Made by a program: the position numbers. Shown piece after piece: positions 46,094 through 49,000 of a stretch of DNA of 64,000 nucleotides; positions within the stretch are counted from its first letter, which is position 1; every line of letters begins with the position of its first letter. The DNA lies in the NCBI RefSeq assembly GCF_988243305.1, contig NZ_OZ547136.1. One strand, written 5' to 3'.

Positions 46094-49000
46094 CGCTGCG
46101 GCGACGATCCTTTACACCTTTATTGGCGGTTTCCTCGCGGTGAGCTGGACTGATACTGTACAGGCCAGCCTGATGATTTTTGCCCTGATCCTGACGCCGG
46201 TTATCGTAATCATTAGCGTTGGTGGGTTTGGCGACTCGCTGGAAGTGATCAAACAAAAGAGCATCGAAAACGTCGATATGCTCAAAGGGCTGAACTTTGT
46301 TGCCATTATCTCGCTGATGGGCTGGGGGCTGGGTTACTTCGGGCAGCCGCACATCCTGGCGCGTTTTATGGCGGCGGATTCTCACCACAGCATTGTCCAT
46401 GCGCGTCGTATCAGTATGACCTGGATGATCCTCTGCCTGGCAGGGGCGGTGGCTGTCGGCTTCTTTGGTATTGCTTACTTTAATGAGCACCCGGCGGTAG
46501 CAGGTGCGGTAAACCAGAACGCCGAGCGCGTGTTTATCGAACTGGCGCAAATTCTGTTTAACCCGTGGATTGCCGGGATTTTGCTGTCGGCGATTCTGGC
46601 TGCGGTGATGTCAACCTTAAGTTGCCAGCTGCTGGTGTGCTCCAGTGCGATTACCGAAGATCTGTACAAAGCGTTTCTGCGTAAACATGCCAGCCAGAAA
46701 GAACTGGTGTGGGTAGGGCGTGTGATGGTGCTGGTGGTGGCGCTGGTGGCTATTGCGCTGGCGGCGAATCCGGAAAACCGCGTGCTGGGCTTAGTGAGCT
46801 ACGCGTGGGCAGGCTTTGGCGCGGCGTTTGGTCCGGTGGTGCTGTTCTCGGTGATGTGGTCACGCATGACGCGCAATGGTGCGCTGGCGGGGATGATCAT
46901 CGGTGCGCTGACGGTTATCGTCTGGAAGCAGTTCGGCTGGCTGGGTCTGTACGAAATTATTCCGGGCTTTGTCTTTGGTAGTATCGGGATTGTAGTGTTT
47001 AGTTTGCTGGGTAAAGCGCCGTCAGCGGCGATGCAAAAACGCTTTGCCGAGGCCGATGCGCACTATCATTCGGCTCCGCCGTCACGGTTGCAGGAAAGCT
47101 AAGGGACTTAGCCTGCGGCGGTTTTGTTTGGCTTCAGCAGCGGGTTGCGCTCCCTTAATGTGCCTCGCCATATAAATTGAATGGTGCAGGGGGCGGCCAA
47201 TCGCCGCCACCCCCTGCACCCCGGGCTCTGGCGAACAAAATCGCCGCTGCGCGGTACCTTCAGCTTATCCCCTTCGGCTACCGGGTCGGGCGCGAGGTAA
47301 TGTCCTATAAGACGCGCCCTCAGCCCACATCCATGTGGGCTGCCCTGGCCTTCGGGGAACGCTTCAGCGACTTTGACGCCACCAACACCCGAGCTGTTAT
47401 TATGTTCCGGGCAAAAAGTTAGATTTGATAATCGCGGATGGACGAAATTGCTTGATACACCCGCTTATCAGTTTTACATGGAAGCTCTGATGCATTGAGT
47501 CTGGACAGTTTTGTCGGCTGGATAAGGCGTTTACGCGGCATCTGGCAAGAACACATGGCTCGTTGTAAACAATCCCATCTTTGTACCTGGAATAATCGTT
47601 TATATCCCTTGCCATTACCTCTCTTTGTTTACATTCCAACATCATTTTATAAACATTCCGCTTGTATTTTTCTTTGCCGTAATGATAATCGCTATCACTG
47701 CGATTTACTTTTCTTTGCATAGATTGACTCAGAAAAACGTTTAAGGGTGGGTGGCATGTTTGTTCCATTTCTCATTATGTTGCGCGAAGGACTTGAAGCC
47801 GCGCTGATTGTCAGTTTGATTGCCAGCTATCTTAAGCGTACCCAGCGAGGCCGATGGATTGGTGTGATGTGGATTGGCGTGTTGCTTGCCGCTGCGTTGT
47901 GCCTGGGCTTGGGTATCTTCATTAACGAAACCACCGGCGAATTTCCGCAAAAAGAACAGGAACTGTTTGAAGGTATCGTGGCGGTGATCGCCGTGGTGAT
48001 CCTTACCTGGATGGTTTTCTGGATGCGCAAAGTGTCGCGCAACGTCAAAGTACAACTGGAGCAGGCAGTCGATAGCGCATTGCAGCGTGGGAATCATCAT
48101 GGCTGGGCGCTGGTGATGATGGTCTTTTTTGCCGTTGCAAGGGAGGGGCTGGAGTCGGTCTTTTTCCTGCTGGCGGCGTTTCAACAAGATGTCGGGATCT
48201 GGCCGCCGCTGGGTGCAATGCTCGGTCTTGCTACAGCCGTGGTGCTCGGCTTCCTGCTCTACTGGGGCGGTATTCGCCTCAATCTTGGTGCATTTTTTAA
48301 ATGGACCAGCCTGTTTATTCTCTTCGTCGCCGCAGGGCTGGCGGCTGGTGCCATTCGCGCATTTCATGAAGCCGGATTGTGGAACCACTTTCAGGAAATC
48401 GCCTTCGATATGAGCGCGGTGCTCTCAACTCACTCGCTGTTTGGCACGCTGATGGAAGGGATTTTTGGCTATCAGGAAGCGCCGAGCGTCAGCGAAGTCG
48501 CCGTCTGGTTTATTTATCTCATCCCGGCGCTGGTGGCATTTGCTCTGCCACCACGCGCAGGGGCGACAGCGTCTCGCTCCGCGTAACAAATACGACGCAA
48601 ACTCTTGCTTAGTTACAACATACTTTAAAGGGATAGTCTCGTCATGACCATTAACTTCCGCCGTAACGCATTGCAGTTTAGCGTGGCTGCGCTGTTCTCT
48701 TCTGCTTTTATGGCTAACGCCGCTGATATTCCGCAGGTCAAAGTCACTGTGACAGATAAACAGTGCGAACCGATGACCATTACGGTTAACGCCGGGAAAA
48801 CACAGTTCATTATTCAGAACCACAGCCAGAAGGCGCTGGAGTGGGAGATCCTCAAAGGCGTGATGGTGGTGGAAGAGCGGGAAAATATCGCCCCTGGTTT
48901 TAGCCAGAAAATGACGGCGAATTTACAGCCTGGCGAATACGATATGACCTGCGGTCTGCTGACTAACCCGAAAGGGAAGTTGATCGTCAAAGGTGAGGCA

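What the first reader, a model, noticed from the sequence alone, without database searches (positions are those of the whole stretch)
47756..48586. efeU is intact
efeU is one uninterrupted 276-aa ORF with both REGLE iron-permease motifs and a Fur box upstream, so EfeUOB is predicted to be a functional ferrous-iron uptake system. As I recall, K-12 laboratory strains carry a frameshift in efeU, so this genome is probably not of the K-12 lineage.
Basis: partly seen in the sequence, partly recalled or inferred. Interest (0 to 1): 0.3.

Follow-up and report, generated by a model that had tools for sequence, protein, structure and literature searches.

The report
Intact efeU iron permease gene
This E. 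coli window carries the normal, uninterrupted efeU gene of the EfeUOB iron-uptake operon, which is the usual state in E. coli, because only the K-12 laboratory lineage has the known one-base frameshift; the finding is correct but ordinary.

Summary
Window 47756..48586 (+) is one 276-codon ORF plus stop. It has REGLE motifs at residues 10-14 and 129-133. It matches Pfam FTR1 over its full length and passes the NCBIfam EfeU equivalog cut-off. Intact efeO (48644..49771) and efeB (49777..51048) follow it. A Fur-box-like 19-mer (47678-47696, 15/19 to consensus) lies 60 nt upstream of the ATG and is the best such match in the 64 kb.

K-12 MG1655 efeU (b4490, annotated pseudogene, 830 nt) lacks one G of the GG at window 47861-47862 (codon 36), which gives a stop at codon 37. 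The window protein is 100% identical to EfeU of an O157:H7 strain and of E. coli B REL606. O157:H7 is the serotype in which EfeUOB was shown to be functional.

The K-12 deletion allele is exact in 368 of about 5,400 complete E. coli chromosomes, and all 60 listed are K-12 derivatives. The intact allele is exact in 3,637. The window is syntenic with K-12 from hyaA to phoH at only 97.0-97.9% identity, so it is not K-12.

An intact efeU excludes only about 7% of sequenced strains. Function here is predicted, not shown.

The parts
47756..48586 (+). efeU: inner-membrane FTR1/EfeU-family iron permease, 276 aa, intact
   Evidence: ORF and translation. Pfam FTR1 1.8e-89, residues 1-275 on profile positions 1-283 of 284. 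NCBIfam EfeU equivalog 331 bits against a cut-off of 255. 100% aa identity to O157:H7 PV15-279 EfeU, WP_000497942.1; REL606 efeU is annotated with the same protein accession.
47783..47797 (+). first REGLE (RExxE) motif, aa 10-14, in predicted TM1
   Evidence: regex on the translation; hydropathy segment 1-23
48140..48154 (+). second REGLE motif, aa 129-133
   Evidence: regex on the translation
47861..47862 (+). GG of codon 36 (GGT, Gly36); K-12 has only one G here, which shifts the frame and gives a stop at codon 37
   Evidence: pairwise alignment with MG1655; translation of the K-12 allele; 61-mer allele counts
47678..47696 (+). Fur-box-like 19-mer CGTAATGATAATCGCTATC (15/19 to consensus), 60 nt upstream of the ATG
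   Evidence: consensus scan of the whole window and shuffle control; identical in K-12; a Fur box was predicted computationally for efeU in PMC4145685
47662..47689 (+). possible sigma-70 promoter: TTGTAT, 16 nt, GATAAT, with the -10 hexamer inside the Fur-like box (inference only)
   Evidence: pattern positions. The consensus promoter scan found nothing at its threshold, so this is weak.
47704..47718 (+). TTTAC-N5-TTTGC, the reverse complement of a CpxR-type GTAAA-N5-GTAAA tandem (9/10); candidate CpxR site
   Evidence: pattern match. It is part of a 13-nt direct repeat that brackets the Fur-like box. CpxR repression of efeU is reported in the literature. The site assignment is my inference.
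47743..47747 (+). Shine-Dalgarno AAGGG, 8 nt before the ATG
48644..49771 (+). efeO: periplasmic cupredoxin + M75 (imelysin-like) protein, 375 aa, intact, HRLE (HxxE) at aa 217-220
   Evidence: Pfam Cupredoxin_1 and Peptidase_M75. NCBIfam PRK10378 EfeO 773 bits, 1-375 of 375. 3-4 aa differences from the O157 and K-12 proteins. HxxE motif.
49777..51048 (+). efeB: Tat-exported DyP-type haem peroxidase/deferrochelatase, 423 aa, intact, SRRRLLK twin-arginine motif
   Evidence: Pfam Dyp_perox_N and Dyp_perox_C. TIGR01412 614 bits against a cut-off of 428. D235, H329 and R347 are present. The exact protein is widespread in public assemblies.

Best explanation
This is the ordinary wild-type efeUOB operon of a non-K-12 Escherichia coli. 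efeU encodes a seven-helix inner-membrane permease of the Ftr1/EfeU family. Its two RExxE (REGLE) motifs are thought to bind and pass iron. EfeO (cupredoxin + M75 domains) and the Tat-exported DyP-type haem peroxidase EfeB act in the periplasm, and together the three proteins take up ferrous iron at low pH. Expression is expected to be repressed by Fe2+-Fur at the box overlapping the likely -10 region, and by CpxR at higher pH. The gene is intact because this strain never acquired the single-G deletion in codon 36 that makes the system cryptic in K-12. What is shown here: ORF integrity, the motifs, family membership, protein identity to the EfeU of an O157:H7 strain and of REL606, the exact K-12 lesion, and the non-K-12 background. 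What is inferred from the literature: the transport mechanism, the roles of EfeO and EfeB, Fur and CpxR control, and actual expression and function in this strain.
For: The 276-aa ORF is intact with two REGLE motifs. The FTR1 match is full-length, E = 1.8e-89. The EfeU, EfeO and EfeB NCBIfam equivalog models are all passed. EfeU is 276/276 identical to the O157:H7 PV15-279 protein WP_000497942.1 and to K-12 efeU repaired in silico; REL606 efeU is annotated with the same protein accession. All 10-11 nucleotide differences from K-12 and O157 are synonymous, which indicates purifying selection. efeO and efeB are full length with their key motifs. The gaps are 57 nt and 5 nt, with no convincing + strand terminator in either. 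The Fur-like box scores 15/19, is unique in the window, and is reached by 0.2% of shuffles. The K-12 lesion is a 1-nt deletion giving a stop at codon 37. The K-12 allele is exact in 368 records against 3,637 for the intact allele. The window is 97.0-97.9% identical to MG1655 over hyaA-phoH. The literature says the system is cryptic in K-12 through a frameshift and functional in O157:H7 and Nissle 1917; Grosse 2006 and Cao 2007 are cited in PMC2808357, PMC7549933 and PMC4746246. efeU is listed under Fur and CpxR control in PMC4145685 and PMC9600279.
Against: Nothing in the sequence argues against it. The limits are as follows. No expression or transport data exist for this strain. The sigma-70 consensus scan found no promoter upstream. 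The Fur-like box has 4 mismatches, and its binding was not tested here. The putP-efeU spacer differs from K-12 by a 123-bp extra repeat element about 420 nt upstream of the ATG, and its effect on regulation is unknown. EfeB differs at 8 residues from the K-12 and O157 proteins, though none of these is a catalytic residue. No solved structure of any EfeU relative was found by sequence, so the RExxE mechanism rests on mutagenesis in homologues.
Confidence: 0.93

Rival explanations
1. The operon is intact by sequence but silent or non-functional in this strain, for example through altered regulation caused by the different putP-efeU spacer, or through the EfeB or EfeO substitutions.
For: The spacer has 123 extra bp and lacks 11 bp relative to K-12. 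There is no consensus sigma-70 promoter hit. EfeB differs at 8 aa and EfeO at 3-4 aa from the K-12 and O157 proteins.
Against: The 165 nt immediately upstream of the ATG (from about 47591) is conserved in every strain compared, including those with a completely different distal spacer, and this stretch holds the Fur-like box. The exact EfeB sequence is very widespread, in 3,583 index blocks. D235, H329, R347 and the twin-arginine motif are retained. All efeU differences are synonymous.
Confidence: 0.05
2. The window comes from a K-12 derivative in which efeU was repaired, by reversion or by engineering.
For: Repaired-efeU K-12 constructs exist in the literature; Cao 2007 is described this way in PMC7549933. 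The predicted protein equals the repaired K-12 protein.
Against: There are 10 synonymous differences within efeU itself. Identity to MG1655 is about 97.5% across 52 kb. IS1D is absent, and pgaABCD is replaced by a DUF2726 gene and an integrase island. K-12 derivatives would be about 100% identical.
Confidence: 0.005
3. The intact reading frame is an assembly or sequencing artefact: a miscalled G in a short homopolymer hides a real frameshift.
For: The K-12 lesion sits in a GG dinucleotide, and single-base indels are the commonest assembly error.
Against: A two-base run is not error-prone. The same 61-mer is exact in 3,637 independent complete genomes. An independent assembly (GCA_958430705.1) is 99.986% identical over 7.2 kb that includes the gene.
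Confidence: 0.01

Closest known systems
EfeU of E. coli O157:H7 (protein WP_000497942.1 in strain PV15-279), part of the EfeUOB low-pH Fe2+ transporter (Cao et al. 2007)
   Same: The protein is 276/276 identical. The operon order efeU-efeO-efeB is the same, the flanks putP and phoH are the same, and the promoter-proximal 165 nt are the same.
   Different: There are 11 synonymous nucleotide differences. O157:H7 carries a 1344-nt hypothetical gene between putP and efeU that the window lacks. EfeO differs at 3 aa and EfeB at 8 aa.
efeU (ycdN, b4490) pseudogene of E. coli K-12 MG1655
   Same: Same locus and synteny, and an identical Fur-like box. The protein would be identical if the missing G were restored.
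   Different: K-12 lacks one G in codon 36, which gives a 36-aa truncated product. The window has both Gs. There are 10 further synonymous differences, and the spacer differs by a 123-bp and an 11-bp indel.
EfeU of E. coli B REL606
   Same: Intact 831-nt gene annotated with the same protein accession, WP_000497942.1.
   Different: REL606 keeps pgaABCD downstream of phoH, and the window does not.
Ftr1p, the high-affinity iron permease of Saccharomyces cerevisiae (Pfam FTR1, PF03239)
   Same: Same Pfam family with a full-length match. Both have two RExxE motifs in transmembrane segments (the role of the motifs is from established knowledge of Ftr1p mutagenesis).
   Different: Ftr1p works with the multicopper oxidase Fet3p. 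EfeU works with EfeO and the haem peroxidase EfeB. Sequence identity was not measured here.

Membership tests
FTR1 / EfeU iron permease family (Pfam PF03239; NCBIfam NF041756 EfeU equivalog; TIGR00145) | Full-length match to the family profile above the curated cut-off | tested here: met
   PF03239: 300.3 bits against 25.3, residues 1-275 on profile positions 1-283 of 284. NF041756: 331.2 against 255. TIGR00145: 351.7 against 303.8.
FTR1 / EfeU iron permease family | Two RExxE (REGLE) motifs | tested here: met
   REGLE at aa 10-14 and 129-133.
FTR1 / EfeU iron permease family | Polytopic inner-membrane protein with about seven TM helices | tested here: met
   Kyte-Doolittle 19-aa scan: six segments at or above 1.6 (1-23, 38-56, 70-88, 146-170, 179-203, 248-266). 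The less hydrophobic REGLE-bearing segment around 116-142 would be the seventh. This is a crude method, and topology was not modelled.
FTR1 / EfeU iron permease family | Transports Fe2+ (or Fe3+ after oxidation) across the membrane | not testable with these tools
   Inferred from 100% identity to EfeU of an O157:H7 strain, the serotype shown functional in Cao 2007, and from the papers cited.
EfeUOB tripartite operon | efeU followed by intact efeO (cupredoxin + M75, HxxE) and efeB (Tat signal, DyP peroxidase) on the same strand | tested here: met
   The gaps are 57 nt and 5 nt, and no convincing + strand terminator lies in them.
EfeUOB tripartite operon | Fur-dependent iron repression through a Fur box in the promoter | tested here: inconclusive
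   A 15/19 consensus match at 47678-47696, unique in the window, reached by 0.2% of shuffles. Binding was not testable here. The literature lists efeU as Fur-regulated and reports a computationally detected box.
K-12 lineage (cryptic efeU allele) | Single-G deletion in efeU codon 36 | tested here: not met
   The window has GG at 47861-47862 where MG1655 has one G.
K-12 lineage (cryptic efeU allele) | Near-100% nucleotide identity and identical IS content relative to MG1655 | tested here: not met
   97.0-97.9% identity over six syntenic blocks. IS1D is absent, and there is no K-12 match after phoH.

The most novel reading that the evidence does not exclude
The most novel reading left open concerns the variable putP-efeU spacer. 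In the window it carries a roughly 125-146-nt dispersed repeat element that is missing at this place in K-12 and is replaced by a 1.3-kb hypothetical gene in O157:H7, ST70 and MLI121. This variation might modulate efeUOB expression differently between lineages, so that intact operons differ in how cryptic they are in practice. A second point is that the strain belongs to a lineage poorly represented among complete genomes: no complete RefSeq E. coli reaches 99% identity over window 1-25000.
Probability: 0.05. Interest if true: 0.25.

Novelty: already known. Interest (0 to 1): 0.06.

Why it matters
It matters little. An intact efeUOB is the default in E. coli, and it predicts that this strain can take up ferrous iron at acidic pH through a third route beside Feo and MntH. 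That trait is linked to fitness in acidic, iron-poor niches, but it was not required for virulence in the one ExPEC study read here (PMC7549933). As a lineage marker it only says 'not K-12', which the surrounding DNA says far more strongly. The check is useful mainly for annotation: the gene should be called as a normal CDS, not as a pseudogene carried over from a K-12 template.

Tried and rejected
1. GTG 47747 as the start codon. Rejected, because the Shine-Dalgarno sequence would overlap it and RefSeq uses the ATG.

2. The antisense ORFs 47741..48388 (-) of 215 aa and 47400..47768 (-) of 122 aa. I treated these as mechanical ORFs. They overlap a strongly conserved gene or the promoter, and I did not search them for homologues.

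3. The consensus sigma-70 scan upstream of efeU found nothing. Only a weak TTGTAT-16-GATAAT candidate can be proposed.

4. Rfam at gathering thresholds found nothing in the efeU region. The only hits were Ysr251 and the cspA thermoregulator elsewhere in the window.

5. The PDB sequence search with EfeU found no solved relative, so I made no structural comparison.

6. I tried to name the strain. No complete RefSeq E. coli is at or above 99% over window 1-25000 (best 98.9%) or over 36000-60000 (best full-coverage 97.7-97.9%; MLI121 98.7% at 98% coverage). I did not determine the phylogroup.

7. I could not list all 368 records that carry the K-12 allele. Only the first 60 were shown, and all are K-12 derivatives. 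'Exclusive to K-12' is therefore well supported but not exhaustively shown.

Full report
**Observation.** The window holds one uninterrupted reading frame from ATG 47756 to TAA 48584-48586. That is 831 nt, or 276 codons plus the stop. The mechanical ORF list begins three codons earlier, at GTG 47747. The ATG is the better start. An AAGGG Shine-Dalgarno sequence at 47743-47747 sits 8 nt before it, and RefSeq annotates the same 831-nt CDS in O157:H7 and in E. coli B REL606. The translation contains REGLE twice, at residues 10-14 and 129-133. A simple hydropathy scan gives six strong hydrophobic segments. The less hydrophobic segment bearing the second REGLE would make seven, the number expected for this family.

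**Family.** The protein matches Pfam FTR1 (PF03239) end to end (E = 1.8e-89). It passes the curated cut-offs of NCBIfam NF041756 'iron uptake transporter permease EfeU' (331 against 255 bits) and TIGR00145.

The two downstream genes are also full length:
- efeO (48644..49771, 375 aa) has Cupredoxin_1 and Peptidase_M75 domains and an HRLE motif at residues 217-220.
- efeB (49777..51048, 423 aa) has Dyp_perox_N and Dyp_perox_C domains and scores 614 bits on TIGR01412. It carries an SRRRLLK twin-arginine signal, and D235, H329 and R347 are present.

The gaps between the genes are 57 nt and 5 nt. No convincing + strand terminator lies in either. This fits a three-gene operon.

**Comparison with K-12.** In MG1655 the gene is annotated as pseudogene b4490 and is 830 nt long. 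Alignment shows a single missing G. The window reads ATT GGT GTG where K-12 reads ATT-GTGTG, at window 47861/47862, which is codon 36. Translating the K-12 allele gives a stop at codon 37. Restoring the G in silico gives a protein identical to the window's at 276/276 positions. The other 10 nucleotide differences are all synonymous.

The window protein is also 276/276 identical to EfeU of O157:H7 strain PV15-279 (WP_000497942.1), with 11 synonymous differences. REL606 efeU is annotated with the same protein accession. O157:H7 is the serotype in which EfeUOB was shown to be functional. The papers I could read state that the MG1655 system is inactive because of a frameshift in efeU, and that replacing it with an in-frame operon improves growth under iron restriction. 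They cite Grosse et al. 2006 and Cao et al. 2007 (PMC2808357, PMC7549933, PMC4746246). I could not read the two primary papers themselves.

**How special is an intact efeU?** I searched two 61-mers centred on the site against 5,426 complete RefSeq E. coli genomes.
- The K-12 deletion allele is exact in 368 records. All 60 that were listed are K-12 derivatives, such as MG1655, C600, J53, DH5alpha, DH1, RR1 and NCM3722.
- The intact window allele is exact in 3,637 records. Most of the rest differ by a substitution or two.

Intact efeU is therefore the species norm, and the frameshift is a mark of the K-12 lineage. The inference 'not K-12' is correct but weak on this evidence alone.

Much stronger evidence comes from the surrounding DNA. 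The window is collinear with MG1655 from hyaA to phoH but only 97.0-97.9% identical. It lacks IS1D between gfcA and cspH, and it has no K-12 match after phoH.

**Fur box.** CGTAATGATAATCGCTATC at 47678-47696 matches the 19-bp consensus GATAATGATAATCATTATC at 15 positions. It is the only match of 15/19 or better on either strand of the 64 kb. Only 11 of 5,000 dinucleotide-preserving shuffles of the 300 nt upstream reached that score. The site is identical in K-12.

A possible promoter, TTGTAT-16 nt-GATAAT at 47662-47689, would place the -10 hexamer inside the box. It is too weak for the consensus scan to report, so this is inference only.

A 13-nt direct repeat (TAyTTTTCTTTGC, at 47665-47677 and 47706-47718) brackets the box. 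The second copy forms TTTAC-N5-TTTGC, the reverse complement of a CpxR-type tandem. The literature lists efeU under Fur and CpxR control (PMC4145685, PMC9600279). My assignment of the CpxR site is not tested.

**Mechanism.**

Shown here:
- The three genes are intact and belong to their families.
- The motifs are present.
- The EfeU protein is identical to that of an O157:H7 strain, the serotype in which the system was shown to work.

Inferred from established knowledge of Ftr1p and EfeUOB:
- EfeU is the inner-membrane permease, and its RExxE motifs handle iron.
- EfeO and the Tat-exported haem peroxidase EfeB act in the periplasm.
- The system imports ferrous iron at acidic pH, is repressed by Fe2+-Fur, and is repressed by CpxR at higher pH.

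No relative of EfeU with a solved structure was found by sequence. Function in this strain was not and cannot be tested here.

**Rivals.**
- A repaired K-12 derivative is excluded by the 97.5% background identity.
- An assembly artefact is very unlikely. The site is only a two-base run, the allele is exact in thousands of genomes, and an independent assembly is 99.986% identical over 7.2 kb.
- An operon that is intact but silent cannot be excluded by sequence. However, the 165 nt next to the ATG are conserved even in strains whose distal spacer is entirely different. The exact EfeB sequence is also very common.

**Verdict.** The observation and the interpretation are both correct, and both are already known. 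This is a routine wild-type operon, of low interest.

Noticed in passing
window 47103-47755 (putP-efeU spacer), especially 47205-47350: The spacer is 653 bp here against 542 bp in K-12. The window has 123 extra bp (about 47216-47338) and lacks 11 bp next to a GC-rich hairpin at 47183-47220. The 146-nt stretch 47205-47350 is a dispersed, unannotated repeat found at a median of 3 places per E. coli genome (up to 8) at 91-97% identity. I did not identify which named repeat family it belongs to.
   Followed up: partly
window ~47591 (breakpoint); L002 1402-2745, L011 15371-16714, L013 4823-6166: O157:H7, ST70 (O7:H15) and MLI121 carry a 1344-nt hypothetical gene (447 aa) between putP and efeU that is absent from the window, K-12 and REL606. 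Homology with the window resumes about 165 nt upstream of the efeU ATG. The spacer is a hot spot of variation.
   Followed up: partly
window 52479-64000: K-12 synteny ends just after phoH, and pgaABCD is absent. In its place are a DUF2726 gene (52998-53684), a tyrosine integrase (54130-55332), a 605-aa hypothetical on the minus strand (55519-57336), an IS1 remnant, a YfjI/DUF3987 gene (59405-60856) and an inovirus-type Gp2-like gene (61677-62240). In the closest complete genome (MLI121, 99.5%) the island continues with a TOTE-conflict-system primase fragment and a 1,652-aa AAA protein. This looks like an integrative island with possible defence content. No tRNA gene lies in the window.
   Followed up: partly
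window 52237-52430 (-): Rfam hit to Ysr251 (Yersinia antisense sRNA family), 192.8 bits against a gathering score of 100, antisense to the 3' end of phoH.
   Followed up: no
window 17829-18251 (+): Rfam cspA thermoregulator hit (157 bits), which corresponds to the leader of cspG. The IS1D that K-12 carries between gfcA and cspH is absent here; the junction is at about 17071-17079.
   Followed up: no
window 1-25000 and 36000-60000: No complete RefSeq E. coli genome among the 5,426 reaches 99% identity over these stretches. The best is 98.9% over 1-25000 and 97.7-98.7% over 36000-60000. Different parts of the window have different best matches: the efeU region is 99.7% to pig and ETEC strains, and the island is 99.5% to MLI121. 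The source strain seems to be a mosaic or an under-sampled lineage. A draft contig (GCA_958430705.1) is 99.986% identical over 7.2 kb.
   Followed up: partly
window 51371-52435 (phoH): The longest ORF gives a 354-aa PhoH, as annotated in K-12. RefSeq PGAP annotates a 262-aa product from an internal start in O157:H7, REL606, ST70 and MLI121. This is a difference in start-codon annotation, not in sequence.
   Followed up: no
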